DNA of 57,413 bases, taken from NCBI GenBank assembly GCA_964608955.1, contig CAZSQC010000001.1, forward strand, positions 6,959 through 64,371, given 5' to 3'. Positions 1 through 19,863 of the stretch are shown one piece after another; positions within the stretch are counted from its first letter, which is position 1; every line of letters begins with the position of its first letter. The DNA is from an uncultured Planctomycetales bacterium (GTDB lineage Bacteria > Omnitrophota > Gorgyraeia > Gygaellales > Profunditerraquicolaceae). The notes under the pieces were generated by a model. It searched no databases. It saw nothing but the letters and a program-made list of their open reading frames with translations, and had not been told where the DNA came from. The position numbers and the translations under genes were made by a program.

Positions 1-492
1 TATTTTCTTCCCCTGCTTAAGCGCAATACCGGCGATTAACGGCAAAAGCCCGCTTACATTGCAATGCGTAAGAATTGAATCTCCGTTTTTAAGCAGCTTG
101 GCTGCCTCTTCTGCCTGCTTAATACGCGCATATTTTAAGCCTTCTAAAAAACCGTATATGCATTTTTCAAGCGGGGCTTTGCCCTTTTGCCACCCTAAGA
201 CCATGTCCGTTAAAAACTTAAATGAAAGCGTGGGCCGTGTGGCATTAATAGCGTTGGCAACTACCCTTAAATCTTTTTTCTGCGCAATGGCCTGCAAGAA
301 AATATACATTACCAATAAAACCTGTCCTACTGCGCGCGTCTTCATTTCTTTTATCGCCTTATATGCTTCTTTATAATTACGCGCCTTTATACGGTTAAGC
401 TTAAAAGGAAGCTTAGTCTCATCTAAGATATAGATAAGATTGCCCTTTAACTGAACTGGCCAAAACAGCGGTGAAAATTTCATCATTCTCAT
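1..492 (-). CDS. eIF-2B alpha/beta/delta family protein, methylthioribose-1-phosphate isomerase-like (N-terminal part, gene runs off window start)
   Basis: Not in the ORF track. Hand translation of the minus strand from ATG at 492 gives MRMMKFSPLFWPVQLKGNLIYILDETKLPFKL...NGDSILTHCNVSGLLP, open in frame to position 1. The LDxTKLP start and THCN motif are typical of the MtnA/eIF-2B family. The plus-strand ORF 59..376 is its antisense shadow. Confidence 0.7.
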   Translation of the reverse strand, partial: MRMMKFSPLFWPVQLKGNLIYILDETKLPFKLNRIKARNYKEAYKAIKEMKTRAVGQVLLVMYIFLQAIAQKKDLRVVANAINATRPTLSFKFLTDMVLGWQKGKAPLEKCIYGFLEGLKYARIKQAEEAAKLLKNGDSILTHCNVSGLLPLIAGIALKQGKKI

Positions 493-520
493 TGTTTAAA
501 TAAAGAACTGTCTTTAGCTT

Positions 521-1270
521 TTATTTACCTTCTAGCTTTTTAACTGTTTCAAGCGCGATAGTAAGTAAATTTGCCTCAGCCATATAGTAAGAAGAATTCA
601 TAAAACCCATCTCTCCGGTGACGACATTATCGCTTACTGCCAAAATTGATCCGGCCTTAACATTGTAAGTTTGAGCGATTGTCAGAAGCGTTGAGGAAAC
701 CATATCTACGGCTCTTGCCCCCTCTTTGCGCTTTGCCTCAACAATCTCGCGCGTCTCGCGTAAAAGCGCATCAGTAGTCCAGGCCTTTCCGCGATGGATA
801 GATAAACCCATTTCTTTCCCGACTTCATAGAGCGTATCGGAAATTTTCTTATCGGCAACGGTTTTAAAATTGTTATCCACGTAATAAGGGGTAACGCCGT
901 CCCCGCGTATGACCTCATCTACCACAAATAAATCCCCTACTTTAATATTCTCATCCAATGACCCGGCAGTACCCACGCGGATAATATTCTGAATCTGCGC
1001 ATTACACATTACTTCGGTTGTAATGGAAGTGTCCGTTGAAAACCTACCCCCGTTAATAGCGGTAATCTTAATACCTTCAAAAACACCGGTAAACATGGAA
1101 TATTCCATAAAGGTAAAATTCTTTACCGGATTCTCGATTTTCTTTAATAGGGTCTCAAGCCTGTCCTTTGGCCCGGGGACAATAGCGTATTTTCCAACAT
1201 CCTGCGGCCTTAATTGCACCATATTCGTTAAATCCTTACCTGTTAAATGTACTTCTTTTTGCATCTGCAT
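521..1270 (-). CDS. nucleoside phosphorylase, PNP_UDP_1 family (purine/uridine/MTA-type)
   Basis: 249 aa. Contains GTAGSL-type phosphate-binding segment and overall DeoD/Udp-like layout. Lies 28 nt upstream of the MtnA-like gene. Confidence 0.8.
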   Translation of the reverse strand: MQMQKEVHLTGKDLTNMVQLRPQDVGKYAIVPGPKDRLETLLKKIENPVKNFTFMEYSMFTGVFEGIKITAINGGRFSTDTSITTEVMCNAQIQNIIRVGTAGSLDENIKVGDLFVVDEVIRGDGVTPYYVDNNFKTVADKKISDTLYEVGKEMGLSIHRGKAWTTDALLRETREIVEAKRKEGARAVDMVSSTLLTIAQTYNVKAGSILAVSDNVVTGEMGFMNSSYYMAEANLLTIALETVKKLEGK

Positions 1271-1281
1271 ATTAATTCTCC

Positions 1282-2193
1282 TTATACTTTATTGAACAAA
1301 CTCTGAAGATTCTCACCTAAAATATTATCCTCATCATTCTCGGATAGGCCCAGGCTCCTAATAGCATTAATACTGATTTGGGGTTCTTTTTTTGCCGGAT
1401 AATCCGAACCCCAGAGAATATGCTTTGGACCGAATAACTCCAGTGCCGCGCTAAAATTCGCCTTTGTAGTATCTCCGCTAGTATCAACATAAATATTCTT
1501 TAATAACTGTGTGGGGTCGTTTTTTAAATCCTTAACAAAATTAATTCCGCGCAGCATTTGATAAGTTGTATCAAAGCGGTTTGCGAGAAACGGGATAACT
1601 CCTCCGAAATATGCAAAAATAAACTTAACCCTGTAGTCTTTTAATATATCCGACATCAAAAGCTTCCCGATACAGATAGTGGTGTCAAAAACGTATTCTA
1701 TGACGGGTGTAAGAAGAGGATCCTCAACGCGTTCGGTACCTATGGGCTTAATAATCTGCGAGTGCACGAATACCGGGATATTCTTCTCCTGCGCCAGCTT
1801 GTAAACTCCTAAAAAACGCCTGTCATCTAAATAAACCTGATTGTAACTTGAGGCCAGCGAAATAGCCTTAAAACCCAACTCTTCTGTTGTACGCCTGAAC
1901 TCCTTAAGCATATCAAGTTCATGGTCAACGGGGAGTATCGCAGCCCCTACAAACCTCTCGGGGTATCTTTTCAAGACTTTGGAGACATTGTCATTAAAAA
2001 TACGTACAACTTCGGATATGCTCCCTAATTTTAAATGGGCATCGGAAGTCGGATAAGACAAAACAGCCTTATCTATCTTTGCCTCATCCATTATTTTAAG
2101 CTGAGCTTCAATATCACCCCAGCCTTTATGGTAAAAATGGGCGTTATTAATTATGCCTTCCGGCAGCCAATGGCTATGCGCGTCTATTATCAT
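1282..2193 (-). CDS. amidohydrolase_2 family metal-dependent hydrolase/decarboxylase (ACMSD/LigW-like)
   Basis: 303 aa. N-terminal IDAHSHWLP (HxH metal ligands) and C-terminal LWGSDYP aspartate motif. Its start ATG (2191-2193) shares base 2193 with the stop codon of the preceding ORF. Confidence 0.8.
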   Translation of the reverse strand: MIIDAHSHWLPEGIINNAHFYHKGWGDIEAQLKIMDEAKIDKAVLSYPTSDAHLKLGSISEVVRIFNDNVSKVLKRYPERFVGAAILPVDHELDMLKEFRRTTEELGFKAISLASSYNQVYLDDRRFLGVYKLAQEKNIPVFVHSQIIKPIGTERVEDPLLTPVIEYVFDTTICIGKLLMSDILKDYRVKFIFAYFGGVIPFLANRFDTTYQMLRGINFVKDLKNDPTQLLKNIYVDTSGDTTKANFSAALELFGPKHILWGSDYPAKKEPQISINAIRSLGLSENDEDNILGENLQSLFNKV

Positions 2194-2585
2194 TAATGCT
2201 CTGTGCTCCTTAAAATTCTGGCGGTCATTTCAGACTCATAAAACCTTTTTATATCCTTTAAGGTATTCTTCCCGAGCTCTTTTATTATCACTTTTTCAAC
2301 TGCCTTAAGCCTTAATAATAAAAACTCATAATCCGCAGATAGTTTTCTATCTTTAAACTTTAAACTAAGTCCTTCTTGCTCTTTCTTTACTATGTAATTC
2401 TCGAAGTCCTTTATGAAATTTGATATCGTACCTTTCTTATCCCGCGCCTTAAGCTCCCTTAAGATAATTCTGTCAATCTCGGCCTGCGTAAACTTACGCT
2501 CAACCTTATCAAAAGCTTCTTTTGCGCTCTTATAAAACCATACAAGGTAGCGCTTTTTCAGATTCTTGGTGTCATTTTTATCCAT
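2193..2585 (-). CDS. hypothetical highly charged helical protein
   Basis: ORF track gives 2193..2630. The first 15 codons are encoded by the GC-rich tandem repeat. The internal ATG at 2585 (MDKNDTKNLKK...) is preceded by AGGA, so the shorter start is preferred. No recognisable family. Confidence 0.45.
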   Translation of the reverse strand: MDKNDTKNLKKRYLVWFYKSAKEAFDKVERKFTQAEIDRIILRELKARDKKGTISNFIKDFENYIVKKEQEGLSLKFKDRKLSADYEFLLLRLKAVEKVIIKELGKNTLKDIKRFYESEMTARILRSTEH

Positions 2586-2600
2586 ATCTTTATTTATCCT

Positions 2601-2677
2601 GGTGCAGCTTAAGAGGCGCGCACCGGGCATTCCTTTTTATCCGGGTGCAGCTTAAGAGGCGCGCACCGGGCATTCCT
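2601..2677. repeat. tandem direct repeat, two exact 34-nt copies at 43-nt period, GC-rich
   Basis: GGTGCAGCTTAAGAGGCGCGCACCGGGCATTCCT occurs at 2601-2634 and 2644-2677. A degenerate related segment CCCGGGTGCGCCTGCTTAA at 2683-2701 forms the 3' end of the SDR gene. Each copy carries a GGTGC...GCACC short inverted repeat. Confidence 0.9.
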
Positions 2678-3452
2678 ATTTGCCCGGGTGCGCCTGCTTA
2701 AACGGTATTACCGGAGCAGTCCAAGGAGTCTGCTGGTTTATAACCGAGATCTCCAGAGGGCAGACATTTGCCGGAACAGTCAAGGCAAACTTTACCGCAT
2801 TCTCGATCGCCTCGGTGCTCATTAATCTAGAAGTATCCTGGGTTACCTCTTTTAATTTACCGGTAAGGTCAGTATCAGTTACCCCCGGTAGAAGAGAAGT
2901 AACTTTTATCCCGTAGTCCCTTAATTCCCAGAAGAGCCCTTTAAGAAACGCACGCAACCCTACCTTAAGAGAGCTGTAAACAATAAAATTCCTCGGTAAG
3001 GGATCGCATAGCGTAGATCCCGAAACCATATTTATTATCGCGCCGGACTTTTGTTTTATCATATCATTGATAACTAACCGGATTAAACGTACATAGCCCA
3101 GATAATTAGTGTGCGCCAGCCTTTCAAAATCTTCTATCGGCTGTTCCGGAAACGGATACTGACTGGAAACACCGGCGTTATTAACTAGAATATCAATTCT
3201 GCCGAATTTCTCCTTAGTTTTGTTAACCAAGTTCTCCAGATCCTCTAACTTTGTAACATCGCAGGCAACCGGTAAAACATCCACCTGGTATTTCTTTGCA
3301 ATCTCCTCTGCAGTCTCCTTTAAGGGCCCTTCCTGGCGCGCAGCAATAGTAATATTAATTCCCAGGCTGGCGCATGTTGAAGCAAGCGCCTTGCCTATCC
3401 CGCGGCTGGCTCCAGTAATAATTGCGACTTTTCCTTTTAGTTCCCGGCTCAT
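2676..3452 (-). CDS. SDR family oxidoreductase (candidate ketoreductase)
   Basis: 258 aa. Has TGASRGIG cofactor motif, NNAG, and the YSSLK (YxxxK) catalytic motif. Confidence 0.9.
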   Translation of the reverse strand: MSRELKGKVAIITGASRGIGKALASTCASLGINITIAARQEGPLKETAEEIAKKYQVDVLPVACDVTKLEDLENLVNKTKEKFGRIDILVNNAGVSSQYPFPEQPIEDFERLAHTNYLGYVRLIRLVINDMIKQKSGAIINMVSGSTLCDPLPRNFIVYSSLKVGLRAFLKGLFWELRDYGIKVTSLLPGVTDTDLTGKLKEVTQDTSRLMSTEAIENAVKFALTVPANVCPLEISVINQQTPWTAPVIPFKQAHPGK

Positions 3453-3465
3453 AATTATTCCTCCC

Positions 3466-4583
3466 TTATTTAATTTTAGTTAATTTACCTCTGGAGAGCA
3501 GAAAAAACAACCCGCACCCAAAGACTACAAATCCAAGGTTAAAACTTTTTGACATAATAAACCCGCCCAAACTCATTCCTAATCCCCCGGATATAAACCT
3601 TATGCTACTATTTAAGCTCGCTGCTTCATTTAACGCATCAGGAGGAAGATCTGTGAGCATAGGGGAAAGGCCAAAATGGTTAAAGGTCCTTCTTAGCCCC
3701 AGAATAACATTGGTTAATGCAAAAACCAAAGAGGCGGCTTTAAAACAAGAAAAATAATACTGAATATCATCAGCAAGATTCCCCAGTTAATTATCTTTTT
3801 TCTCCCTAATGAATCCGCAAGCAACCCTCCCCAAATCTCCCCGAAAATACCGCTTAGCGCGGTTAAGGTAATCAGCATGCTGATTTTAAATTGATCTAGG
3901 CCTATCTGGGTTGAGAAATAAACCCCCAGCCACTGCTGTATGGCGTGGTAAATCAGGCTTATTAAAAAGATATATGATAAAATCCTTACTATGCCCTTGT
4001 CTTTAAAAATACTGAAGTAATTAAATTCAAATACTCCCATATCTTCTTTAAAGCTCGGAAGACAAAAATACATAAGCGCCCATAATATAAAACCTAAAGT
4101 GCCGGGGATTAAGAATATGAACCTCCAGTAAATAACGCCGCTTAAAAACAGTCCCAAGAGCGAGGCAATAAAGGTAAGCCCGAAAAAAGTTCCTATATAT
4201 TTACCGCGCTCTTCTTGAGCCTTATGCCTGGCGATAAGAATTAACCCCAGAGGGATTACCGAGGCGCCAAAGAAACCCATCAATAATCTTCCTGACAGCA
4301 GTACTAAAAAACCTTTGGCAAAACCTACTATGAGGTTAGCGAAAGAAAATAAAATAATGCATATTAGTTCTACTGTGCGCGCGTCAAACTTGCGTACTAA
4401 AGGCCCGTAGAGAAGCGCGGCTAGTCCATAGGTAACCATGTAAGACCAGACTATTGCCCCTACGCTAAACTGAGAAAGAGCGAATTCTTTTGCTACCGAA
4501 GGGATTAAGGCTGCGGCTGCAGCAACATTAAAAGAAAGCAGCGCGCCCTCTAAACAAAGGATAATAAAAGTAAATTTCTTCAA
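3466..4583 (-). pseudogene. MFS transporter, reading frame interrupted (two ORFs 3714..4583 and 3466..3729)
   Basis: The 289 aa multi-TM ORF ends ...LKPPLWFLH*. An overlapping ORF in another frame continues with 87 aa of further TM helices. The frames switch at a T5 run (plus-strand A5 at 3721-3725). Joined length of about 370 aa fits a 12-TM MFS protein. Confidence 0.65.
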
Positions 4584-5020: not shown

Positions 5021-5115
5021 TAAAACTCTCCTTTCTCGCGTATCCCATAACTCATTATTATTTTTTCTTGTAAAACTACCGCTTTTTGCAGACGATCTAA
5101 CAACGCTTAGATCTC

Positions 5116-5916
5116 CTAAGCTACCGCAACTACCCTGGACCAGGCAGCTCCTGTCCGGCGTATTCTTACCGGGAAACAGATAATCTTAAAACCTGTTGCG
5201 CCAGGCAAGTTTCCCAAATTACCTAATCTTTCTATATGGATAAACTCGCGTTTTCTGCCGTAAAAATGCGCGGGATAAAATTTCTCGGGGTTTCTTGTTT
5301 CCATAAATTCCTTTAGCATAAATTTATAAGGACGGTCAATACCCATGGTATCTACACCGAAAACTTTGATGCCGCGGTCCATAAGAAAATCTATTGCTGA
5401 TATTCCGACTCCGGGGTACTCTGAAAAATATTTAGGAGTGCCATAAAATTTATCCGCCCCTGTCCAGAAAAGAACGATATCAAGCGGCTTAAGGCTGTAA
5501 TTGATTTCTTTTAAAGCCGCTTCTAAGTCTTTAGCAGTTATCTCCTCCGTGGAATTCTTTTTCCTTAAATCCAGGCGCACCCCATTCTGAAAGCAATATT
5601 CCAGCGGGATTTCATCAGCGGTCTTAGATGCCTTACCTTCTGATTTAGTGCCGTAATGAAAGGTGTAATCCAAGTGCGTTCCCACGTGCACGGGAGAATG
5701 CACTGTTTCCAGGGAAAGGAATTCACCCTCCGGAACATCGGTTGCTTTAAGTATTCTTTTGCCTAAAAGGAAATTAATTCTTCCTTTAAGGGTCTTTCCC
5801 ATAATTACGCGGTTAAACTTCTCCACGCCGTCTTTATGGCTGATGCGCTCGATTTCGACCTTATGCACTTCAAAGGCCTCTTCATCAATCGGAAGGCTTA
5901 AATCAATTATCGTCAT
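5116..5916 (-). CDS. cyclase family protein (PF04199-type, kynurenine formamidase-like)
   Basis: 266 aa. HVGTHLDYTFH matches the HxGTHxDxxxH metal-binding signature of the putative-cyclase family. Its start directly abuts the ACP stop. Confidence 0.8.
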   Translation of the reverse strand: MTIIDLSLPIDEEAFEVHKVEIERISHKDGVEKFNRVIMGKTLKGRINFLLGKRILKATDVPEGEFLSLETVHSPVHVGTHLDYTFHYGTKSEGKASKTADEIPLEYCFQNGVRLDLRKKNSTEEITAKDLEAALKEINYSLKPLDIVLFWTGADKFYGTPKYFSEYPGVGISAIDFLMDRGIKVFGVDTMGIDRPYKFMLKEFMETRNPEKFYPAHFYGRKREFIHIERLGNLGNLPGATGFKIICFPVRIRRTGAAWSRVVAVA

Positions 5917-6153
5917 TTATTTTGTTTGCTTTGAAAGAATAACCTTTTCGATATCATCAATCGAAGAGGATTTAGTGATCTCTTTGGGGCTAAGCTTTAC
6001 TCCAAAGGCCTTCTCCAACGCAATCACTGATTCGACCATTTCAGTTGAATCCACCCCGATTGATTCCTGTAAAGTTACTGCATCTTTTAGTTCTTCGGGT
6101 TTTACTTTTAGCAAATCGACGAGAACTTCTTTAATCTTGAGCTTGATCTCCAT
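5917..6153 (-). CDS. acyl carrier protein
   Basis: 78 aa, acidic. GVDSTEMVE contains the phosphopantetheine-attachment DS motif. Confidence 0.85.
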   Translation of the reverse strand: MEIKLKIKEVLVDLLKVKPEELKDAVTLQESIGVDSTEMVESVIALEKAFGVKLSPKEITKSSSIDDIEKVILSKQTK

Positions 6154-6164
6154 TTGAATACCTC

Positions 6165-7628
6165 CTATATCTGCACTTCACCTTTAGTTGCGGCTGCTTC
6201 CCATTTATTAATGCCGTCCATGACATCTTTAAAACAAAGCTTGGCAAGCGGATCGAAATTACTCTCCATAATCCTGTTAATACGGCCGGGCTTGGAGAAA
6301 AACTCCCTCATGCACCAGGAGCCCAATCGGCCTAAGTCCTCGGTAGTTAAATGGTCCGTGGGAATAACGGGATGCAGAAAATCCCAAGTGCTAAAATCAA
6401 CTTTTTTAGGGTCCACCCAGCCTTTCTTTAAAGCAATCCTCCACATCGGAGAATTAGGGGCCGGGGTAACATAACCTACCCACATAATATCCGGGTCAAC
6501 CGCATCGGTAAATTCAAAACGCTGCTTGATAATCGCTTCGGTGTCATAATCAAAACCCATCATAATGTCAGCTACTATTGCAATATCGTTCTTGCGCAGT
6601 ATCTCGATTGTCTTCTGGATCTGGTCTATGGTAATCCCTTTGGCAATTTTCTTTAACTCTGACTGGGTAGTAACTTCTATCCCAAAAACGCCCATAAATA
6701 ACCCATTCTCCTTCATTAAGGGGACTACTGACTCACAGTTAACCCAGTCAATGGCGCGGCCTAAAGAAACCCATTTGATAGGGTTATTGGCTGCTTTTTT
6801 TAGCTCGCAGAACTTCTTTACGCGGTCAGGATCGACATTAAAATTATCATCCTGGATTACTACGACTTTCACTCCGTATTTTTTGTGCAGAAGATTGAGC
6901 TCCTCCATTACTCTCTCCGGAGATTTCGCACGCCACTTTAAGAAATCCGAAGGAGAACGCGGGTCAAACTGATCCCATTCGTAACAGAAGGTACAAGCCG
7001 AAGGACAACCCCTGGATGTTACCATATCGACAAAAGGCTTCCAGTATGTATGCCCTACATATTTATCCATAGGGAATAAATCATAAGCAGGCAGAGGAAG
7101 CTTATCTAAATCCTGCATTAAGGGCTTATGCGGCCCCATGACTATTTTTCCGTCAATGCGGGAAGTAACTCCCCCTACATCTTTTAAGGGCTTATTCTTA
7201 TCGAGCGCCTCGATTAGGTCTCCGAAAGACTCTTCTTCTCCCATTACCACAAAATCAATCTCGGGATTTTCTTCCAGGGTAGGGACGGGCATTGCAGAAT
7301 ACCATAATCCGCCTAATACTATTTTCGTTTTCGGCAAAACTTTTTTAATTCCTATAGCGGCATCCTTGAAATGGCGCAGGACCCCGTAACCTCCGTAACC
7401 ATGAAGCTGCTCTCCCATTACCACCACATCAGGATTCATATCTTTGACCCTCTGAATCAGCTGGTCCATGGGTATCTGGTCAGCTTTTCCGTCAATCACT
7501 GCGACATCAGAATAACCGCGGGTATCCCTGACATAAGCTGCCCAATGAGCATAAAGCTGGTTTGGAGAACGGTGTATACCATGGGTTGCCCATGCGCCCA
7601 CCTTCGGCATAACAAATAATATTTTCAT
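6165..7628 (-). CDS. B12-binding domain radical SAM protein (class B rSAM)
   Basis: 487 aa. N-terminal Rossmann-like cobalamin-binding-type region is followed by SRGCPSACTFC (CxxxCxxC). A strong AGGAGG Shine-Dalgarno sits upstream. Confidence 0.9.
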   Translation of the reverse strand: MKILFVMPKVGAWATHGIHRSPNQLYAHWAAYVRDTRGYSDVAVIDGKADQIPMDQLIQRVKDMNPDVVVMGEQLHGYGGYGVLRHFKDAAIGIKKVLPKTKIVLGGLWYSAMPVPTLEENPEIDFVVMGEEESFGDLIEALDKNKPLKDVGGVTSRIDGKIVMGPHKPLMQDLDKLPLPAYDLFPMDKYVGHTYWKPFVDMVTSRGCPSACTFCYEWDQFDPRSPSDFLKWRAKSPERVMEELNLLHKKYGVKVVVIQDDNFNVDPDRVKKFCELKKAANNPIKWVSLGRAIDWVNCESVVPLMKENGLFMGVFGIEVTTQSELKKIAKGITIDQIQKTIEILRKNDIAIVADIMMGFDYDTEAIIKQRFEFTDAVDPDIMWVGYVTPAPNSPMWRIALKKGWVDPKKVDFSTWDFLHPVIPTDHLTTEDLGRLGSWCMREFFSKPGRINRIMESNFDPLAKLCFKDVMDGINKWEAAATKGEVQI

Positions 7629-7645
7629 CTACTTCCTCCTCTTAT

Positions 7646-7704
7646 GGGGACACCCTGCCGATTAGGTCAAAGGATGTCCCTTGATTAGACTAAAGGGTGT
7701 CCCC
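7646..7704. repeat. 11-bp perfect inverted repeat (GGGGACACCCT / AGGGTGTCCCC) bridging the CLF stop and the rSAM ribosome-binding site, plus a degenerate third copy
   Basis: Arms lie at 7646-7656 and 7694-7704. A 9/11 related copy AGGATGTCCCT lies at 7671-7681. On the mRNA the 3' arm ends 5 nt before AGGAGG. Confidence 0.6.
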
Positions 7705-8928
7705 TTTTTCGATAACCAGGACTGAATTTATTCCGCCTCTTCCGCGGGAGATTATCAAAGCTTTATTTATCTTTTTTTCTTTTGGTTCTTTACCTATATA
7801 ATTAAGGCCTTCAATAGCAGGGTTATCAAGATTTACGGTAGGGGGAACTAAATTATTCTCCATGGCGAGGATTGTCGTAATCAAATCCACTGCTCCGGAT
7901 GCGCCGAGTAAATTACCGAACATGGATTTAGGGCAGCTTACCGGAATATTTCTCAGATTTTCCTTAAAAATTATTTTTAATGCTTTTATCTCTGAATCAT
8001 CCCACAGCGAGCTAGCAAGCCCGTCTAAGCTTATAAAATCTATATCTGCAGGCTGTATCTTAGCATCAGCAAGGGCATTACTTATCGCTCTTGCCAGTTC
8101 CACTCCATCAGGAGCGCAATCAATACGATCTACGCCGTCACAAGTAGCGGCATATCCTGAAATCAAAGCCTGGATATTAACCTTTCTTTCTTTAGCGCGC
8201 CTTATACTCTCCATCACTACAATTCCCGCACCTTCCCCTATTACGCAGCCATCCCTGCTTTTATCAAAAGGGCGATAGGCGGATTTTGGACTACTGTTAT
8301 TCTTAGAAAGCGCACCGTAAGTATTGCAGCATAAAAGCGCATACGGCGTTACCGGCGCTTCCATGCCTCCGGCTAAAATCATGTCCAATTTATTCTTTGC
8401 TAAAACTTTCCTGGCATAACCTAAAGCCATAAGCGAACTTGCACGGTCAGCAACAACGGTCTTAGAAAAACCCTTTATCCCGTAATAAATAGATACTTGT
8501 CCCTGCGGAGCAGCCGGAAACCATGCTGAAGCCATATAAGGAGAAACGCCCTCCCTGCCTTCGATATATAAATCGCGCAGCTCTGTTTCGGCATAAAGCC
8601 AGCCGCCTATTGCATTACCCAGAAAAATTCCGACTAAATTAGGGTCCTCTTTTTTTATATCAATGCCGGAGTCCTGCAGGGCCATTTCAGCGGCGATTAA
8701 AGCCATGTGCGAAAAGGCGTCTATTTTCTTAGCGAGCCTCTCTGAAATATGGCTGTACTTCTCAAGGTCATCAATCTGCCCCGCGATATGCGCAGGGTAT
8801 TTTGAAGCTTCAAATCTGGTAATCTCTTTTATGAATGACCTTGCGCTTTTAATATTTGCCCAAAACTGGCGCTTGCCTATTCCTGAAGGCGCAACTATAC
8901 CTATGCCGGTTACCGCTATTTTATCCAT
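7690..8928 (-). CDS. beta-ketoacyl synthase family protein lacking the catalytic triad (KS-beta / chain-length-factor-like)
   Basis: 412 aa and aligns along its length with the adjacent KS. Active-site STGCTAG corresponds to VADRASS (Cys to Arg). NAHGSST corresponds to SLDGLAS (His to Asp). MIGHPL corresponds to MFGNLL (His to Asn). An 8-nt overlap couples it to the KS-alpha gene. Confidence 0.85.
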   Translation of the reverse strand: MDKIAVTGIGIVAPSGIGKRQFWANIKSARSFIKEITRFEASKYPAHIAGQIDDLEKYSHISERLAKKIDAFSHMALIAAEMALQDSGIDIKKEDPNLVGIFLGNAIGGWLYAETELRDLYIEGREGVSPYMASAWFPAAPQGQVSIYYGIKGFSKTVVADRASSLMALGYARKVLAKNKLDMILAGGMEAPVTPYALLCCNTYGALSKNNSSPKSAYRPFDKSRDGCVIGEGAGIVVMESIRRAKERKVNIQALISGYAATCDGVDRIDCAPDGVELARAISNALADAKIQPADIDFISLDGLASSLWDDSEIKALKIIFKENLRNIPVSCPKSMFGNLLGASGAVDLITTILAMENNLVPPTVNLDNPAIEGLNYIGKEPKEKKINKALIISRGRGGINSVLVIEKGDTL

Positions 8929-10183
8929 TATATCTCCTTAAAACCAACGATGAATGAATCCCAGAAAAACCGCTGCTTGTTTTTAATATCACATCTACCT
9001 TTTTTTTAATCGCTTCATTGGGTATATAGTATAAATCGCACTGCGGATCTTTTTCTTCCTGGTTAATCGTAGGGGGGAGGATATTTTTCTCAAATATCAA
9101 AGCTGCGACTGTAAGCTCGATTGCGTTTGCCGCGGCCAAAGGATGCCCGATCATGGACTTAAAGGAACTTATCGGAAGTTTATATGCGTACTCCCCGAAG
9201 ATTGCTTTATAGGCGCTGGTTTCGAATATGTCATTCATGCGGGTAGAAGAGCCATGGGCATTGATATAGTCCACATCTTTAGGATTGACATCGGAGTCTT
9301 TTAACGCTAAATCTATACACATCTCCATTGCCCTGCCATCGGAAGGAAGATCTGTCATATGGAAGGCATTGCAACTTGTCCCGAACCCTAAAACTTCGCA
9401 ATATATTTTTGCGTTTCTTCTTAAAGCATGGTTTAACTCCTCTAACACAAGAATCCCCGCCCCTTCGGAAAGGACAAAGCCGTCCCTTTTGTTATCAAAA
9501 GGCCGGGAGGCTTTTTCAGGCTCGCTGTTATGCACAGATAAAACATTAACGACGTCGAATGCGCCAAAAGTAATCGGAGTAATCGGAGCTTCTGCTGCGC
9601 CGCAAATCATGATATCCTGCTCTCCGTCCTGGATAGACTCTAAACCAAATCCCAAAGAATCCGTCCCAGCAGTACAGCCTGTAGAAAGAGTATTGCATAT
9701 TCCTTTTAACCCATATTTGGAGGAAATTTCTATGGAAGGCGTATTAAACATCGCCGCGTCGTAAAGGTCCTGGCGCACCAGAGAAGGGTCAATAGGTTTC
9801 TTGCCATCTTCAGTTACCAGGGCAAATTCCTCTTCCATATATTTTGTCCCGCAAATGGCGTTTGCCAGGCATACCCCTGCCCTGCGTGGATCTTCTTTCT
9901 TAAAATCAATGCCGCTGTCTTTTATCGCCATATTTCCTGCCACTACGCCGAACTGCACATACCTATCCATGCGCATCGCCTCTTCATGGGTCAGGCCGAG
10001 TTTAAAAGGGTCAAAATCACGCACTTCCGCCGCTATTTTTGTATTAAAAACTGACACATCAAAACCATCAACCAGCTTTACGCCGGACTTGCCCGAAGAC
10101 ATTCCCCTCCATACAGCTTCTTTTCCTATTCCATTAGGGGAAACTGTTCCTACTCCAGTAATAACCACTCTGCGTTTTTCCAT
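8921..10183 (-). CDS. beta-ketoacyl-ACP synthase, type II PKS KS-alpha-like
   Basis: Has STGCTAG active-site Cys, NAHGSSTRMND and SMIGHPLAAA His motifs. Start set at MEKRRVVITGVG (ATG 10183, AGGAGA upstream) rather than the extended ORF start at 10216. Confidence 0.9.
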   Translation of the reverse strand: MEKRRVVITGVGTVSPNGIGKEAVWRGMSSGKSGVKLVDGFDVSVFNTKIAAEVRDFDPFKLGLTHEEAMRMDRYVQFGVVAGNMAIKDSGIDFKKEDPRRAGVCLANAICGTKYMEEEFALVTEDGKKPIDPSLVRQDLYDAAMFNTPSIEISSKYGLKGICNTLSTGCTAGTDSLGFGLESIQDGEQDIMICGAAEAPITPITFGAFDVVNVLSVHNSEPEKASRPFDNKRDGFVLSEGAGILVLEELNHALRRNAKIYCEVLGFGTSCNAFHMTDLPSDGRAMEMCIDLALKDSDVNPKDVDYINAHGSSTRMNDIFETSAYKAIFGEYAYKLPISSFKSMIGHPLAAANAIELTVAALIFEKNILPPTINQEEKDPQCDLYYIPNEAIKKKVDVILKTSSGFSGIHSSLVLRRYNG

Positions 10184-10230
10184 AAAATTATTCTTTCTCC
10201 TGGCCCGCAAGGGCAAACCCGCGCAATTCC

Positions 10231-10833
10231 TTATACACGCGGGGTATCTTCTACTCTTGTTACTTTAAATATTATATTCCCGCCGTCAGGGCAGGTAACC
10301 GTATCAATAGAATTGGGATCCTGCATAAAGAAAAATTTTGCCCCGAAATTTAACGCGAATAAAGCAGGAAAGGCGGTGTGAAACGCCGCCCCGCAAAATC
10401 CGGGGATGCACTTTAAACCCTGCGTCTCCCATTTATCACCCACCTTGTAACCGAAAGTACATTTACCCTTAGCCTTAACTACCTCAATAATCATCTTCTT
10501 GGGATTAGGGCCTTTATGGTTAGGATCCTTAGGAAGTACCTCGACATTTCCGTTCTTATCCAGTATTTCGGCTTTAAATTCAAGCTTTCCTCCGTCAGGA
10601 CAGGTAACTAAAAGAGACCTCTGGTTGTCGCGGAAACCAAACTTTGCACCGAAGCTTAAGGCATAAATAACCGGAAAAAGGGCGTGCGCTAAACCCAGAC
10701 AAAAATGCTTTGGGGGATGGGTGAAATCCTCCAGGATAATTTCATCCCCTGCCTTATAACCATGATAACACTCTCCGTAAACACCTGTTACTGTAAGTTT
10801 TAACTTCGGAAAAGGCGTATTGACTTCACTCAT
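10231..10833 (-). CDS. tandem-duplicated TIGR04076 family protein (function unknown)
   Basis: 200 aa with two homologous halves. Each has G(E/K)C..GYK.GD ... FC ... FP..(Y/F)AL.FGAKF ... V(T)CPDGG ... F(K). This resembles the roughly 90 aa Cys-rich TIGR04076 module. Confidence 0.65.
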   Translation of the reverse strand: MSEVNTPFPKLKLTVTGVYGECYHGYKAGDEIILEDFTHPPKHFCLGLAHALFPVIYALSFGAKFGFRDNQRSLLVTCPDGGKLEFKAEILDKNGNVEVLPKDPNHKGPNPKKMIIEVVKAKGKCTFGYKVGDKWETQGLKCIPGFCGAAFHTAFPALFALNFGAKFFFMQDPNSIDTVTCPDGGNIIFKVTRVEDTPRV

Positions 10834-10837
10834 ATTC

Positions 10838-11845
10838 TTAATTTAATAAATGCTTTAAGCTACTGTTTAATTCCTCTTTTGTTAAAAATTTATTATCTTT
10901 TTCTACCCTATGTACCAACTCCACCAAGGCTTTATTAAGAGGAGCGGCAAGCCCGTTCTTCTCTGCAAGCGATACAAATTCGCCGTTAATATAATCGATC
11001 TCCGAAGCCTTGCCTCTCCTTATGCTCTGTAATATTGAACCATACAAAGGATCCTTGCTTAACTTAGTCATGATCCCAGAAAATATTTTTGCAGCCTCTT
11101 CTTTAGGGATCGCTATAAGCTTAGTTACATTCTCTATAGGGAAACCCGGCAGAGACTCCATTTTGATATTAAGCCTTGATAGCAGATTGAATCCTTCTTC
11201 CCAGATTTTGATACTTACCATGCTTATATTATGGTCCGCGAATGCCTCCTGCATGCTTAATCCCAGTATCGCGGGGATACAGTTATTGGCGTTTACAAAA
11301 ATCTTCAGATATTTCATGCCTAATATATTTTGGCTTACTACCGCCGGAAAAGCCTTATCCAGAATCATGCTTACATCAAGGATACCGGGATTAGGCACTT
11401 CTTTAAAAACGCTCCCTACTACCCAGTCTCCTTCGAAATTATGCACAACCCTCCCGGGTTCAATGAGAGTAGAGCCAAACATCACAATACTTGAAAGGAT
11501 ATTTTCTTTTGGCAGAAGCCTTGCGATTATATTCTCGGACTGCACGCCGTTCTGCGTAGTAAGTATTATTGTTTTCTTAAGAAGGGGGAGATTATCTCTT
11601 ATCGCTTTTTCTACATCCTGGGTTTTAGTCGCAACTATCAAAATCTTTGGCTCCGACACTAAAAACTCATAAACATGAACGGGGACTTTAAAATCTCCCC
11701 TGACCCCGGAAATTACTACTCCGTTTTTGTGTATCGCGTCTACTGAATCGGGCTTTGCGACTAAATATACGTCTTCACCTTTTAATTTAAGATACCCTGC
11801 CGCTAAGGCACCGATTGCTCCCGCGCCTATTATTGCTACGCTCAA
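10838..11845 (-). CDS. 2-dehydropantoate 2-reductase (PanE/ApbA) family oxidoreductase
   Basis: 335 aa. N-terminal IIGAGAIGALAAGYL Rossmann motif, and C-terminal SILQSIRRGKASEIDYINGEFV typical of the ApbA_C domain. Confidence 0.85.
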   Translation of the reverse strand: MSVAIIGAGAIGALAAGYLKLKGEDVYLVAKPDSVDAIHKNGVVISGVRGDFKVPVHVYEFLVSEPKILIVATKTQDVEKAIRDNLPLLKKTIILTTQNGVQSENIIARLLPKENILSSIVMFGSTLIEPGRVVHNFEGDWVVGSVFKEVPNPGILDVSMILDKAFPAVVSQNILGMKYLKIFVNANNCIPAILGLSMQEAFADHNISMVSIKIWEEGFNLLSRLNIKMESLPGFPIENVTKLIAIPKEEAAKIFSGIMTKLSKDPLYGSILQSIRRGKASEIDYINGEFVSLAEKNGLAAPLNKALVELVHRVEKDNKFLTKEELNSSLKHLLN

Positions 11846-11857
11846 AATGAACCTTCC

Positions 11858-12127
11858 TTATTTACTATTTGACCTAGGGAAACCGTACTTCTTATAATCA
11901 AATCCGGTTTGCTCCAAAAGCCTTACCATCATGCTGTAAAAAGGAGACGGTACATCGGAGAAAAAGGCACAAACAACATCCTCCTCCTGCACCATCGGAC
12001 TGTTCCTCCTTAGGGCATTCTCTCTCGCCTTCTTGGTTACAGCTTCCTCGGTAATATGCCGGTGGAATACCGGGATTTTTGATATAAAAAGCCTGAACTT
12101 TGCCTGGGTCTTATTTTCCCATTCCAT
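11858..12127 (-). CDS. small PCP_red-like protein (protochlorophyllide reductase subunit B C-terminal domain family)
   Basis: 89 aa. W..K.QAKF...ISKIPVFHRHITEEAVTKKARENAL...V.EEDV resembles the W..eA...l.kIPfFvR pattern of PF08369. It is the first gene after the promoter. Confidence 0.45.
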   Translation of the reverse strand: MEWENKTQAKFRLFISKIPVFHRHITEEAVTKKARENALRRNSPMVQEEDVVCAFFSDVPSPFYSMMVRLLEQTGFDYKKYGFPRSNSK

Positions 12128-12139
12128 ATGTCTTAAAAT

Positions 12140-12157
12140 ATAGTAAAATTTTACTAT
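12140..12157. promoter_or_regulatory. 18-bp perfect palindrome ATAGTAAAATTTTACTAT, candidate operator
   Basis: Lies between the predicted -10 (12171-12176) and the first start codon (12127). An extra AGTAAA half-site is at 12163-12168. Confidence 0.5.
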
Positions 12158-12170
12158 TTATCAGTAAACT

Positions 12171-12199
12171 ATTTTATAATTTCAGTAGTCTTGTGTCAA
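12171..12199 (-). promoter_or_regulatory. sigma70-like promoter of the PKS-like operon
   Basis: Minus strand reads TTGACA (12199-12194), a 17-nt spacer, then TAAAAT (12176-12171). Confidence 0.55.
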
Positions 12200-12264
12200 G
12201 TATTTTTAATTAGCATGATTTCTGGCAGGATTAAAACTACCTACGGTTTATACAGATACGATTA

Positions 12265-16597: not shown

Positions 16598-16599
16598 AA

Positions 16600-18302: not shown

Positions 18303-18317
18303 ATTCAACTAATATGG

Positions 18318-18340: not shown

Positions 18341-18347
18341 CATTAAG

Positions 18348-18376: not shown

Positions 18377-18399
18377 GAAAATTAGTTGGGCTTTAAAAA

Positions 18400-19856: not shown

Positions 19857-19863
19857 TTTACAT

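What the first reader, a model, noticed from the sequence alone, without database searches (positions are those of the whole stretch)
6165..7628. Class B (cobalamin-type) radical SAM enzyme placed between the ACP and the KS pair
The 487 aa protein has an N-terminal B12-binding-type domain and a CPSACTFC cluster motif. Its gene sits inside the minimal-PKS core, with ACP 11 nt downstream and CLF 61 nt upstream, and has a strong AGGAGG site. Enzymes of this class typically perform methylation or other radical chemistry at unactivated carbons. The position suggests it acts on an ACP-tethered intermediate, which would be unusual for a type II system.
Basis: partly seen in the sequence, partly recalled or inferred. 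Interest (0 to 1): 0.65.

Follow-up and report, generated by a model that had tools for sequence, protein, structure and literature searches.

The report
Radical SAM enzyme inside anaerobe polyketide operon
A vitamin-B12-type radical SAM enzyme of unknown function is the best-conserved gene of an aromatic polyketide operon found in many uncultured anaerobic Omnitrophota, and it probably replaces an oxygen-requiring tailoring step, although its reaction could not be determined here.

Summary
Window 6165-7628 (-) encodes a 487-aa protein with a B12-binding-type domain, a radical SAM core and a CPSACTFC motif. It lies 61 nt after a catalytically dead KS-beta/CLF gene and 11 nt before an ACP gene, with an AGGAGG site.

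The surrounding operon is a real aromatic type II PKS: an Act/Ant-like KS-alpha, a TcmN-like cyclase and an OxyN-type cyclase.

The rSAM belongs to neither BchE nor HpnJ (201 and 159 bits against cut-offs of 481 and 578). None of its 100 nearest 50%-identity cluster representatives reaches those families' thresholds either.

In 80 Omnitrophota species genomes the operon order is invariant, and the rSAM is the most conserved gene (mean 89.8% identity). In deeper relatives the rSAM sits elsewhere: after the KR, or at the head or tail of the operon. Its slot between CLF and ACP is therefore lineage-specific and says nothing about an ACP-bound substrate. Some paralogous clades have no PKS nearby.

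A more constant partner is a nucleoside phosphorylase, MtnA-like isomerase, aldolase-SCP2 and aldehyde dehydrogenase module.

Best guess, at moderate confidence: a non-methylating, oxygen-independent radical tailoring step. Methylation and adenosyl-adduct chemistry remain open. I found no paper describing this system.

The parts
6165..7628 (-). Class-B-fold radical SAM protein (487 aa): N-terminal B12-binding-type Rossmann domain, CX3CX2C core, helical C-terminal region
   Evidence: most conserved gene of the operon
7629..7689 (-). 61-nt CLF-rSAM spacer with AGGAGG ribosome-binding site and a 10-bp-arm hairpin (arms at 7695-7704 and 7646-7655). The hairpin is not conserved in relatives; the RBS is.
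7690..8928 (-). KS-beta / chain-length-factor-like subunit, catalytic triad lost (C->R, H->D, H->N)
8921..10216 (-). KS-alpha with intact Cys-His-His; best solved relatives are actinorhodin KS (378 bits) and Photorhabdus AntD (376 bits), ahead of FabF (348 bits); 8-nt overlap with the CLF gene
5917..6153 (-). Dedicated acyl carrier protein (78 aa, 'GVDST' phosphopantetheine site)
5116..5916 (-). PF04199 'putative cyclase' (OxyN/DpsY-type later-ring cyclase family)
   Evidence: architecture comparison with PMC7693217
4580..5020 (-). Single-domain SRPBCC aromatase/cyclase, TcmN/WhiE-ORFVI-like (85 bits, E 4e-23 to TcmN ARO/CYC)
3466..4583 (-). MFS transporter gene, split into two ORFs here (3714-4583 and 3466-3729); intact (363-374 aa) in L001 and L004; not detected in about a third of Omnitrophota loci
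2676..3452 (-). SDR-family ketoreductase (86% mean identity across species)
2193..2630 (-). 145-aa protein with no family match; least conserved operon member (52%)
1282..2193 (-). Amidohydro_2 family protein. The role as aromatic-acid decarboxylase is inferred from my knowledge of the family, not tested.
521..1270 (-). PNP_UDP_1 nucleoside phosphorylase (Udp/DeoD-like; weak hits to MTA/SAH nucleosidase, HpnG and futalosine hydrolase, all below cut-offs)
1..492 (-). 5' part of an MtnA-like (IF-2B family) sugar-1-phosphate isomerase gene, cut by the window edge. In the 94%-identical locus L006 the operon continues with aldolase_II-SCP2 and aldehyde dehydrogenase genes, with 4-nt overlaps from the phosphorylase gene onwards.
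10231..10833 (-). Tandem-duplicated TIGR04076-family protein (200 aa), second most conserved gene (87%), function unknown
10838..11845 (-). ApbA/PanE-family NAD(P)H ketoreductase
11858..12127 (-). 89-aa DUF2621-like protein, first gene of the operon. It is directly downstream of the rSAM in the lineages where the rSAM heads the operon.
12171..12199 (-). Best sigma-70-like site of the region (TTGACA-17-TAAAAT, 11 of 12), in the gap before the first operon gene. This is a consensus match only.

Best explanation
The gene encodes a pathway-dedicated radical SAM tailoring enzyme with the class B (B12-binding-type) fold. It belongs to an 'ancestral-type' aromatic type II polyketide operon that is conserved across the uncultured anaerobic phylum Omnitrophota.

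Shown:
- the domain architecture;
- the real KS-alpha, dead KS-beta, ACP, TcmN-type cyclase and OxyN-type cyclase set;
- invariant synteny in 80 species;
- the rSAM as the most conserved operon gene;
- non-membership of BchE and HpnJ;
- a recurrent link to a nucleoside phosphorylase, MtnA-like isomerase, class II aldolase-SCP2 and aldehyde dehydrogenase module.

Inferred: the enzyme reductively cleaves SAM. The 5'-deoxyadenosyl radical abstracts a hydrogen from the polyketide, either free or still on the carrier. The outcome is an oxygen-independent, non-methylating transformation of the BchE/HpnJ type. The most attractive candidate is oxidation of a benzylic methylene to a carbonyl (anthrone to quinone) or a C-C ring closure. 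Aerobes achieve such steps with oxygenases, which this operon lacks. The co-transcribed phosphorylase, isomerase, aldolase and dehydrogenase genes would then remove the inhibitory 5'-deoxyadenosine as DHAP plus acetaldehyde/acetate. Export would be through the adjacent RND or MMPL/DUF1329 systems.
For: Architecture and fold.

PKS identity: the KS is closest to Act KS-alpha and AntD; the CLF triad is lost; the cyclase is TcmN-like; a PF04199 cyclase is present. The KS-CLF-ACP-TcmN-OxyN pattern is called ancestral in PMC7693217.

Co-conservation: the same gene order occurs in all 80 species-representative Omnitrophota loci, as far as each contig extends. The same holds in L001-L003 from a Thermodesulfobacteriota-labelled contig. 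Every clade-1a locus with flanks carries the PKS.

Conservation rank: rSAM 89.8%, above T4076 (87%), KR (86%), PNP (84%), CLF (78%) and KS (77%).

Nearest characterised families: BchE 201 bits and HpnJ 159 bits, against 71-111 bits for the methylases ApyD, PhpK, HpnR and KedN5. According to PMC13598231, BchE oxidises a methylene to a ketone and forms a C-C bond without O2. The same paper groups BchE, HpnJ, OxsB and PbsB as ring-forming or rearranging, non-methylating enzymes.

No oxygenase or class I methyltransferase was found among the operon genes scanned.

5'-Deoxynucleoside module: it is co-transcribed in L006 with overlapping stop/start codons. The DHAP-shunt logic comes from PMC6079011.

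Transcripts detected in two metatranscriptome runs.
Against: The BchE score is less than half the family cut-off, and the 100 nearest cluster representatives are all uncharacterised. Similarity therefore gives only a weak functional lead.

Most characterised class B enzymes are methylases.

The best structural match is AprD4, a dehydratase that binds no cobalamin.

Paralogous or sister clades occur without any PKS within 10 kb: six loci have neither the PKS nor the salvage module, and three have the salvage module only. The family's substrate class is therefore not necessarily a polyketide.

The aldolase carries an SCP2 lipid-binding domain, which simple 5-deoxyribulose-1-phosphate cleavage does not explain.

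No product is known and no chemistry was tested.
Confidence: 0.4

Rival explanations
1. Cobalamin-dependent C-methyltransferase. Methylcobalamin donates a methyl group to a radical generated at an unactivated carbon of the polyketide or its starter unit, possibly while it is attached to the ACP phosphopantetheine arm, as CysS and TokK do with pantetheinyl substrates.
For: Most characterised class B rSAMs are methylases (general knowledge; PMC13598231). The fold matches MgmA, TsrM, TokK and CysS at TM 0.63-0.68; the CysS and TokK structures listed contain pantetheinylated ligands. The Omnitrophota operon has no class I methyltransferase. The gene lies next to the ACP in this lineage.
Against: Profile scores to methylase families (71-111 bits) are well below those to BchE and HpnJ (201 and 159 bits). 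The nucleophilic carbons of aromatic polyketides are normally methylated by ordinary SAM methyltransferases, so a radical methylase would be needed only for an unactivated carbon. The sister clade has a UbiE-like methyltransferase beside the rSAM. The linked salvage module handles 5'-deoxynucleosides, not SAH. Adjacency to the ACP is not conserved.
Confidence: 0.25
2. Adenosyl-adduct pathway. The rSAM adds the 5'-deoxyadenosyl radical to a C=C or aromatic carbon of a hydrophobic substrate, as HpnH and MqnE do. The phosphorylase removes adenine (as HpnG and MqnB do). The MtnA-like isomerase and the aldolase-SCP2 cleave the 5-substituted ribulose-1-phosphate to DHAP plus R-CH2-CHO. The aldehyde dehydrogenase then gives R-CH2-COOH, and an AMP-ligase activates it. 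The net result is a two-carbon homologation that feeds or decorates the PKS product.
For: The phosphorylase-isomerase-aldolase-dehydrogenase set is linked specifically to this rSAM family in several unrelated gene orders. In clade 2 it follows the rSAM immediately, with overlapping genes, and no PKS is in view. In those loci every gene fits one linear pathway: MMPL/DUF1329 transport, rSAM, four processing enzymes, acyl-CoA ligases. The aldolase is fused to an SCP2 lipid-binding domain. The same four-enzyme logic converts 5'-fluorodeoxyadenosine to fluoroacetaldehyde (cited in PMC6079011). The phosphorylase gives weak hits to HpnG (47.7 bits) and futalosine hydrolase (28.6 bits).
Against: As far as I know, no class B-fold rSAM performs adenosylation; HpnH and MqnE have other architectures (my own knowledge, not tested). 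The phosphorylase is closer to Udp/DeoD (103 and 91 bits) than to HpnG. The ordinary DHAP-shunt reading explains the enzyme set without new chemistry. One SAM per product is costly for an anaerobe.
Confidence: 0.15
3. AprD4-like cobalamin-independent radical dehydratase paired with a reductase. The rSAM dehydrates a vicinal diol or hydroxy-ketone of a partly reduced polyketide to a ketone, which the ApbA-family reductase then reduces. The net result is deoxygenation.
For: AprD4 is the best match by both sequence (69 bits) and structure (TM 0.70-0.71) among solved proteins. The order rSAM-h89-ApbA is a conserved sub-operon where the rSAM heads the cluster (L086, L093, L109, L124).
Against: Identity to AprD4 is only 19-20%, and the NCBIfam AprD4 score (81 bits) is far below that for BchE (201 bits). 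The TcmN-type cyclase indicates an unreduced aromatic chain. In the window the ApbA gene is four genes away from the rSAM.
Confidence: 0.1
4. The rSAM is functionally unrelated to the PKS and is only a neighbour, for example a lipid or cell-envelope modifying enzyme.
For: Clade 1b (60-63% identity) sits beside a TetR regulator and, in L155, a lipid A acyltransferase-family gene and an outer-membrane barrel, with no PKS within 10 kb.
Against: The gene is retained inside the PKS operon in at least four different positions across deep Omnitrophota lineages, which is hard to explain without a shared function. Within this operon it has tight spacing and its own RBS.
Confidence: 0.05

Closest known systems
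BchE (anaerobic Mg-protoporphyrin IX monomethyl ester cyclase, TIGR02026)
   Same: It is the best-scoring characterised family (201 bits over residues 3-432). It shares the B12-binding domain plus rSAM core and is an anaerobe enzyme that replaces an O2-dependent step. The proposed chemistry (methylene to carbonyl, C-C closure) is modelled on it.
   Different: The score is far below the 481-bit cut-off. Profile positions 417-497 are unmatched. No tetrapyrrole or bch genes are nearby, and the context is a PKS. None of the 100 nearest cluster representatives reaches BchE at E<=1e-100.
HpnJ (hopanoid side-chain rSAM, TIGR03471)
   Same: It is the second-best family (159 bits) and a non-methylating class B enzyme. 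Hopanoid loci also pair rSAM enzymes with a PNP_UDP_1 phosphorylase (HpnG) and an MMPL-type exporter; that comparison is from my own knowledge.
   Different: The score is below the 578-bit cut-off. Only 2 of the 100 nearest representatives hit HpnJ at E<=1e-100 (best 9e-114), which I estimate is still below that cut-off. No hopanoid biosynthesis genes turned up among the window genes scanned.
AprD4 (rSAM 1,2-diol dehydratase, PDB 6FD2)
   Same: It is the best solved match by sequence and fold (TM 0.70-0.71). Both have a reductase partner in the cluster (AprD3 there, from my own knowledge; ApbA here).
   Different: Identity is 19-20%. AprD4 has an aminoglycoside substrate, and its B12-like domain binds no cobalamin.
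CysS and TokK (class B rSAM methylases with pantetheine-linked substrates)
   Same: They share the fold (TM 0.66-0.68) and show that class B enzymes can take carrier- or pantetheine-tethered substrates.
   Different: Sequence scores are only 28-30 bits. They have larger C-terminal domains and perform iterative methylation in non-ribosomal or carbapenem pathways, not in a type II PKS.
Anammox ladderane gene cluster (FabF heterodimer, amxACP and B12-rSAM)
   Same: It has the same kinds of parts: an active KS paired with a dead KS, a dedicated ACP and a B12-type rSAM, all in an anaerobe (10.64898/2026.05.19.726425). Genome-mining tools label Omnitrophota clusters as 'ladderane' (PMC9902471).
   Different: The ladderane rSAM family TIGR04072 scores 68 bits against a 360-bit cut-off. 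The KS here is closer to Act/Ant KS-alpha than to the entry I take to be the anammox pair (9S5H, 281 bits). TcmN- and OxyN-type cyclases are present, which indicates an aromatic product.
'Ancestral' non-actinomycete aromatic type II PKSs (dendrubin den, AQ-256 ant, clostrubin)
   Same: They share the KS-CLF-ACP plus TcmN-type and OxyN-type cyclase architecture. The dendrubin and clostrubin producers are anaerobes. The dendrubin paper notes that its cluster has no oxygenase gene for anthrone oxidation (PMC7693217).
   Different: From the dendrubin paper's description and my own knowledge of the others, none of them carries a class B rSAM, the TIGR04076 protein, the DUF2621-like protein, the ApbA reductase or the 5'-deoxynucleoside module.
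DHAP shunt / 5-deoxyribose salvage (phosphorylase or kinase, MtnA-like isomerase, class II aldolase)
   Same: The same three enzyme families are present, plus an aldehyde dehydrogenase.
   Different: Here the module is embedded in a biosynthetic operon and tied to one rSAM family. The aldolase is fused to SCP2. The phosphorylase is Udp/DeoD-like rather than MtnP-like.

Membership tests
Class B (cobalamin-dependent) radical SAM enzymes | N-terminal Rossmann-type B12-binding domain followed by a CX3CX2C radical SAM core | tested here: met
   Pfam PF02310 scores 39.9 bits (cut-off 32.1) and PF04055 scores 74.1 bits. The motif is invariant. The fold matches OxsB, TsrM, TokK, CysS and MgmA.
Class B (cobalamin-dependent) radical SAM enzymes | Actually binds and uses cobalamin | not testable with these tools
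   There is no sequence motif for base-off cobalamin binding. The best structural match, AprD4, has the same domain but no cobalamin.
BchE (TIGR02026) | Score at or above the curated equivalog cut-off (481 bits) | tested here: not met
   201.1 bits
BchE (TIGR02026) | Genomic context of bacteriochlorophyll biosynthesis | tested here: not met
   The window and 170 related loci show PKS, salvage or transporter genes. No bch genes turned up among the genes scanned.
HpnJ (TIGR03471) | Score at or above the cut-off (578 bits) and hopanoid gene context | tested here: not met
   159.3 bits. No squalene-hopene cyclase or other hpn genes turned up among the window genes scanned.
Ladderane-associated B12 rSAM (TIGR04072) | Score at or above the cut-off (360 bits) | tested here: not met
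   68.2 bits
Hopanoid and other class B methylases (HpnR, KedN5, PhpK, ApyD) | Score at or above the family cut-offs | tested here: not met
   71-111 bits against cut-offs of 600-750
Aromatic type II PKS (minimal PKS) | KS-alpha with a Cys-His-His triad, closest to known aromatic KS-alpha | tested here: met
   The triad is present. The best solved relatives are 1TQY_A (378 bits) and 6SMO_B (376 bits), ahead of FabF at 348 bits.
Aromatic type II PKS (minimal PKS) | KS-beta/CLF partner lacking the active-site Cys (canonically Gln), translationally coupled to the KS | tested here: met
   Cys is replaced by Arg, not Gln, and both His residues are lost. There is an 8-nt overlap with the KS gene. 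Heterodimer formation was not tested.
Aromatic type II PKS (minimal PKS) | Dedicated ACP and aromatase/cyclase genes | tested here: met
   PP-binding domain at 39.3 bits. TcmN ARO/CYC homologue at E 4e-23. PF04199 cyclase at 106 bits.
DHAP shunt (5'-deoxyadenosine/MTA salvage) | Nucleoside phosphorylase, MtnA-type isomerase and class II aldolase in one operon | tested here: inconclusive
   All three families are present and co-transcribed. The isomerase passes only the eIF-2B_rel subfamily cut-off (194 bits against 186). The phosphorylase and aldolase fall below all equivalog cut-offs, and the aldolase carries an extra SCP2 domain. Substrates are untested.

The most novel reading that the evidence does not exclude
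The rSAM does not abstract a hydrogen. Instead it transfers its 5'-deoxyadenosyl radical onto a hydrophobic polyketide or lipid substrate. The tightly linked phosphorylase, MtnA-like isomerase, aldolase-SCP2 and aldehyde dehydrogenase then trim the adenosyl adduct to a -CH2-COOH group. This would be a previously unknown SAM-driven two-carbon homologation route. In Omnitrophota it would be coupled to a type II PKS. In sister clades it would be coupled to MMPL/DUF1329 transport and acyl-CoA ligases.
Probability: 0.15. Interest if true: 0.9.

Novelty: new variant of a known kind. Interest (0 to 1): 0.62.

Why it matters
Aromatic type II polyketides are almost always tailored by oxygen-dependent enzymes. 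How strict anaerobes oxidise, cyclise or decorate them is largely unknown. The dendrubin study explicitly found no oxygenase gene in the cluster for anthrone oxidation (PMC7693217).

Here a BchE-like radical SAM enzyme is the most strongly conserved gene of a type II PKS operon shared by at least 80 species-level Omnitrophota genomes in the same gene order. Conservation at 84-95% identity suggests a core physiological product, such as a membrane pigment, a quinone or a lipid, rather than a sporadic antibiotic.

Working out the reaction would add a new function to the large uncharacterised part of the class B rSAM family. It could reveal an anaerobic counterpart of anthrone oxygenases. It would also give a first biochemical handle on a phylum that has no pure cultures.

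The specific coupling to a 5'-deoxynucleoside-processing module is of interest either way. It is either an unusual case of by-product salvage built into a biosynthetic operon, or a sign of adenosyl-adduct chemistry.

Tried and rejected
- Sequence search of the rSAM against solved structures gave only weak hits: AprD4 69 bits, TokK 30, CysS 28. No close structure exists.
- I considered filing it as BchE or HpnJ and rejected this on the curated cut-offs and the context.
- I considered filing it as the ladderane rSAM and rejected this: 68 bits against a cut-off of 360, and an Act-like KS.
- Seven literature searches on rSAM plus type II PKS, Omnitrophota polyketides, TIGR04076/DUF2621/DUF1329 and the DHAP shunt found no description of this operon. 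The only trace is a catalogue listing of Omnitrophica KS-CLFs.
- The DUF1329 'nanopod' benzene paper proved unrelated.
- TIGR04076 protein: there is no Pfam or PDB hit. Single-sequence AlphaFold failed (pLDDT 39.6), so no fold search was run.
- The 89-aa protein has no PDB hit and only a sub-threshold DUF2621 match.
- No riboswitch or other Rfam family was found in positions 1-20000.
- The hairpin in the CLF-rSAM spacer is not conserved in relatives and its arm sequence occurs nowhere else in the window, so I dropped it as a regulatory element.
- A second homologue search aimed at finding a cultured carrier returned only Omnitrophota MAGs.
- My first guess at the frame of the gene at the window's start was wrong; this was corrected.
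- An alignment of 130 representatives exceeded the residue limit for the NCBIfam scan, so I repeated it with 100.
Full report
OBSERVATION

The ORF at 6165-7628 on the minus strand (ATG start, 487 aa) exists as described.
- Pfam places a B12-binding domain at residues 30-134 (39.9 bits, above the 32.1 cut-off) and a Radical_SAM core at 202-370 (74.1 bits).
- The cluster motif is C208-x3-C212-x2-C215, within 'GCPSACTFC'. These are the only cysteines conserved in the family, so no auxiliary Fe-S cluster is indicated.
- The stop codon lies 11 nt before the ATG of a 78-aa ACP gene. The start lies 61 nt after the stop of the upstream KS-like gene, with AGGAGG 7 nt before the ATG.
- An AlphaFold model built from 33 homologues is confident (mean pLDDT 92.4, pTM 0.91).

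THE NEIGHBOURHOOD IS A REAL AROMATIC TYPE II PKS

The minus-strand operon reads as follows:

| Order | Product | Coordinates |
|---|---|---|
| 1 | 89-aa DUF2621-like protein ('h89') | 11858-12127 |
| 2 | ApbA/PanE-type reductase | 10838-11845 |
| 3 | Tandem TIGR04076 protein ('T4076') | 10231-10833 |
| 4 | KS | 8921-10216 |
| 5 | KS-beta/CLF | 7690-8928 |
| 6 | rSAM | 6165-7628 |
| 7 | ACP | 5917-6153 |
| 8 | PF04199 cyclase | 5116-5916 |
| 9 | SRPBCC cyclase | 4580-5020 |
| 10 | MFS transporter (split) | 3466-4583 |
| 11 | SDR ketoreductase (KR) | 2676-3452 |
| 12 | 145-aa unknown protein | 2193-2630 |
| 13 | Amidohydro_2 | 1282-2193 |
| 14 | PNP_UDP_1 phosphorylase | 521-1270 |
| 15 | MtnA-like isomerase, start only, cut by the window edge | 1-492 |

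- The KS keeps Cys-His-His. Its best solved relatives are actinorhodin KS-alpha (378 bits) and Photorhabdus AntD (376 bits), ahead of FabF (348 bits).
- The partner has lost the whole triad (Cys->Arg, His->Asp, His->Asn) and overlaps the KS gene by 8 nt.
- The SRPBCC protein is a clear homologue of TcmN ARO/CYC and WhiE-ORFVI (85 bits, E 4e-23).
- KS-CLF-ACP plus TcmN-type and OxyN-type cyclases is the pattern described as 'ancestral' for non-actinomycete aromatic PKSs, including the anaerobe that makes dendrubins (PMC7693217).
- The best sigma-70-like site of the region lies just upstream of the first gene. No Rfam element was found.
- The rest of the 57-kb window is housekeeping: AccA, FolE, MnmE, PurH, two EF-G genes, UvrD and PheT. 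The operon therefore sits in the core chromosome.

WHO CARRIES IT, AND HOW CONSERVED IT IS

The top 120 of 821 hits (E <= 1e-10) in the 5.8-billion-protein collection are 72-95% identical. Where they carry a name, they come from Candidatus Omnitrophota MAGs, plus one Thermodesulfobacteriota and one Pseudomonadota label.

A scan of one genome per GTDB species found relatives in 183 stretches. The best 80 are Omnitrophota by record title, or carry titles such as 'uncultured Planctomycetales' that I take to be mislabels, with one labelled only 'bacterium'. The phylum assignment of the window itself is my inference from these labels. In every one of these 80 loci, as far as the contig extends, the order is h89-ApbA-T4076-KS-CLF-rSAM-ACP-cyclase-SRPBCC-(MFS)-KR-h145-Amido2-PNP.

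Mean amino-acid identity to the window across these species:

| Gene | Mean identity (%) |
|---|---|
| rSAM | 89.8 |
| T4076 | 87 |
| KR | 86 |
| PNP | 84 |
| SRPBCC | 79 |
| CLF | 78 |
| KS | 77 |
| ACP | 75 |
| Cyclase | 71 |
| h145 | 52 |

DNA nearly identical to the window occurs in wastewater, biogas-fermenter and anaerobic-digester metagenomes. Contigs at least 99% identical from two 'RNA-Seq cDNA' wastewater runs cover parts of the operon, including the rSAM. This is only weak evidence of expression, because DNA carry-over cannot be excluded.

WHERE THE PROTEIN SITS AMONG RADICAL SAM ENZYMES

Against NCBIfam the best families are BchE (201 bits, cut-off 481) and HpnJ (159 bits, cut-off 578). 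The methylases ApyD, Sden_1168, PhpK, HpnR and KedN5 score 71-111 bits. AprD4 scores 81 bits and the ladderane-associated family 68 bits. All are far below their thresholds.

An exhaustive HMMER search of 1.84 billion 50%-cluster representatives shows an isolated family. The next clusters are 48, 46, 38, 37 and 34% identical, followed by a broad sea at about 30%. Of the 100 nearest representatives, none reaches BchE at E<=1e-100. Only two reach HpnJ (best 9e-114), which I estimate is still below that family's cut-off.

By fold, the best solved match is AprD4 (TM 0.70-0.71). AprD4 is a radical diol dehydratase whose B12-like domain binds no cobalamin. Next come MgmA, OxsB, TsrM, TokK and CysS.

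Equally, cobalamin use cannot be taken for granted.

POSITION VERSUS CO-CONSERVATION

Contexts of more distant relatives, a metagenome scan yielding 79 further loci, a context script and a neighbour-joining tree reveal two paralogous clades.

| Clade | Identity to window protein | Context |
|---|---|---|
| 1a | 71-93% | Always inside the PKS operon, in three different slots: CLF-rSAM-ACP, KR-rSAM-Amido2, and once cyclase-rSAM-SRPBCC |
| 1c/1d | 48-56% | Heads the operon (rSAM-h89-ApbA-T4076-KS-CLF-ACP...) |
| 2a | 40-43% | Ends the operon, after Amido2 |
| 1b | 60-63% | Beside a TetR regulator; in L155 also a lipid A acyltransferase-family gene and an AlgE-like barrel; no PKS within 10 kb |
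| 2b/2c | 35-45% | (AMP-ligase, UbiE-like methyltransferase, or MMPL)-rSAM-PNP-MtnA-aldolase/SCP2-aldehyde dehydrogenase-DUF1329; no PKS in view |

One Omnitrophota contig (L093) has both paralogues in a single PKS operon.

Of 21 diverse loci with at least 5 kb on both sides, 12 carry the PKS (8 of them with the salvage-type module as well), 3 carry only that module, and 6 carry neither.

Co-conservation with the PKS is therefore robust for the window's own clade and recurs in both paralogues. The slot between CLF and ACP, however, is a lineage-specific arrangement. It cannot be used to argue for an ACP-tethered substrate.

THE SECOND PARTNER

In the 94%-identical locus L006 the operon continues past the window edge: PNP, MtnA-like isomerase, class II aldolase fused to an SCP2 domain, and aldehyde dehydrogenase. 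Each gene overlaps the next by 4 nt. The same four genes follow the clade 2 rSAM directly, with the rSAM and PNP genes overlapping in L091. They also flank the PKS genes in other arrangements.

Family assignments:
- The isomerase scores 232 bits to MtnA models and passes the eIF-2B_rel subfamily cut-off.
- The aldolase resembles archaeal fuculose-1-phosphate aldolases.
- The phosphorylase is Udp/DeoD-like, with weak hits to MTA/SAH nucleosidase, HpnG and futalosine hydrolase.

This is the enzyme set of the DHAP shunt, which disposes of 5'-deoxyadenosine as DHAP plus acetaldehyde (PMC6079011). The same logic turns 5'-fluorodeoxyadenosine into fluoroacetaldehyde.

MECHANISM: WHAT IS SHOWN AND WHAT IS INFERRED

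Shown:
- a radical SAM core in a class B fold;
- dedication to a type II PKS operon within its clade;
- very strong purifying selection;
- specific linkage to a 5'-deoxynucleoside-processing module;
- no oxygenase or class I methyltransferase among the operon genes scanned.

Inferred, and my best estimate at confidence about 0.4: the enzyme uses 5'-dAdo radical hydrogen abstraction to carry out an oxygen-independent, non-methylating step of the BchE/HpnJ kind on the aromatic polyketide. The most economical proposal is oxidation of a benzylic methylene to a carbonyl (anthrone to quinone) or a C-C closure. This parallels BchE, which oxidises a methylene to a ketone and closes a ring without O2 (PMC13598231). 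The linked module would then clear the 5'-deoxyadenosine produced. Whether the substrate is free or ACP-bound is open. The CysS and TokK structures show that class B enzymes can accept pantetheine-linked substrates.

Rivals:
- (a) A cobalamin-dependent C-methylase (0.25). The class majority favours it. The profile ranking disfavours it, as does the chemistry of aromatic polyketides.
- (b) An adenosyl-adduct pathway (0.15). The 5'-dAdo radical is added to the substrate and trimmed to -CH2-COOH by the phosphorylase, isomerase, aldolase and dehydrogenase. This would explain the specific linkage, the SCP2 fusion and the PKS-less clade 2 loci in a single linear scheme. It has no precedent in this fold.
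- (c) An AprD4-like dehydratase working with the ApbA reductase (0.1).
- (d) A functionally unrelated neighbour (0.05).

COMPARISON AND NOVELTY

The protein is a member of the class B fold group, with cobalamin use untested. It is not a member of BchE, HpnJ, the ladderane rSAM family or any named methylase family.

The system is closest in parts list to two known kinds. One is the 'ancestral' anaerobe aromatic PKSs (dendrubin, AQ-256, clostrubin), which lack any rSAM by the dendrubin paper's description and my own knowledge. The other is the anammox ladderane cluster, which pairs a KS/dead-KS heterodimer and a special ACP with B12-rSAMs but has FabF-type synthases and no aromatic cyclases.

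Omnitrophica KS-CLF pairs appear in a catalogue (PMC10132072). Omnitrophota 'ladderane-like' clusters are mentioned in a metagenome survey (PMC9902471). I found no paper that describes this operon or its rSAM.

I rate it a new variant of a known kind: a type II PKS with an integrated, uncharacterised class B rSAM family and a 5'-deoxynucleoside module, widely conserved among Omnitrophota. Interest is 0.62. It is solid and surprising in its conservation, but its chemistry is unresolved and no cultured host was identified.

Noticed in passing
L006 18587-19588; L004 14626-15630; L091 5932-6915 (the gene lies just beyond the window's left edge): The class II aldolase of the operon's 5'-deoxynucleoside module is fused to a C-terminal SCP2 (sterol-carrier/lipid-binding) domain. 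An ordinary DHAP-shunt role does not explain this.
   Followed up: partly
window 10231-10833 (-): A tandem duplication of the uncharacterised TIGR04076 domain forms the second most conserved gene of the operon (87% across 61 species loci). It has no Pfam or PDB match, and single-sequence AlphaFold failed.
   Followed up: partly
window 3466-4583 (-): The operon's MFS transporter gene is split into two ORFs (289 and 87 aa) here, but is intact (363-374 aa) in L001 and L004. It was not detected in about a third of the 80 Omnitrophota loci. This suggests a decaying accessory gene or a frameshift error.
   Followed up: partly
window 7646-7704: A perfect 10-bp inverted repeat (GGGGACACCC ... GGGTGTCCCC; predicted -31 kcal/mol for the 84-nt stretch folded) spans the end of the CLF gene and the spacer before the rSAM. 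It is absent from most relatives, where the spacer varies from 0 to about 70 nt. L008 and L041 share the GGGTGTCCCC arm.
   Followed up: yes
window 12265-17877 (-) and 18400-19856 (-): Directly upstream of the PKS operon lie a P-II-like 96-aa protein, an AcrB-type RND pump, a membrane-fusion protein and a TolC-like channel (pump, fusion protein and channel assigned by eye from the translations, not scanned). These are followed by a PadR regulator and AccA, the acetyl-CoA carboxylase subunit that supplies malonyl-CoA. Other lineages have MMPL plus DUF1329/DUF1302 here instead.
   Followed up: partly
L093 1-1288 and 10001-11446: One Omnitrophota contig carries both rSAM paralogues (56% and 38% identical to the window protein), at the head and the tail of the same PKS operon. 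Genes for a xanthine-dehydrogenase-family molybdoenzyme and for molybdenum cofactor synthesis follow.
   Followed up: partly
L133, L137, L150, L155 (around position 10001): A sister clade of the rSAM (60-63% identity) is always preceded by a TetR regulator. In L155 it is flanked by an AlgE-like outer-membrane barrel and a lipid A acyltransferase-family gene. No PKS lies within 10 kb.
   Followed up: partly
proteins P0128, P0129, P0132: Among the distant homologues are giant proteins of 2096-2331 aa that contain four or five class B rSAM units in tandem.
   Followed up: no
window 33772-36947 (-): A lysine-2,3-aminomutase-like radical SAM gene is followed by two D-Ala-D-Ala-ligase-type ATP-grasp genes. 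This may be a small beta-amino-acid ligation module unrelated to the PKS.
   Followed up: no
window 50116-53181 (-) and 31801-33753 (-): The window holds two EF-G-family genes. One is 1021 aa long, with an N-terminal extension of about 320 residues that has no Pfam match.
   Followed up: no
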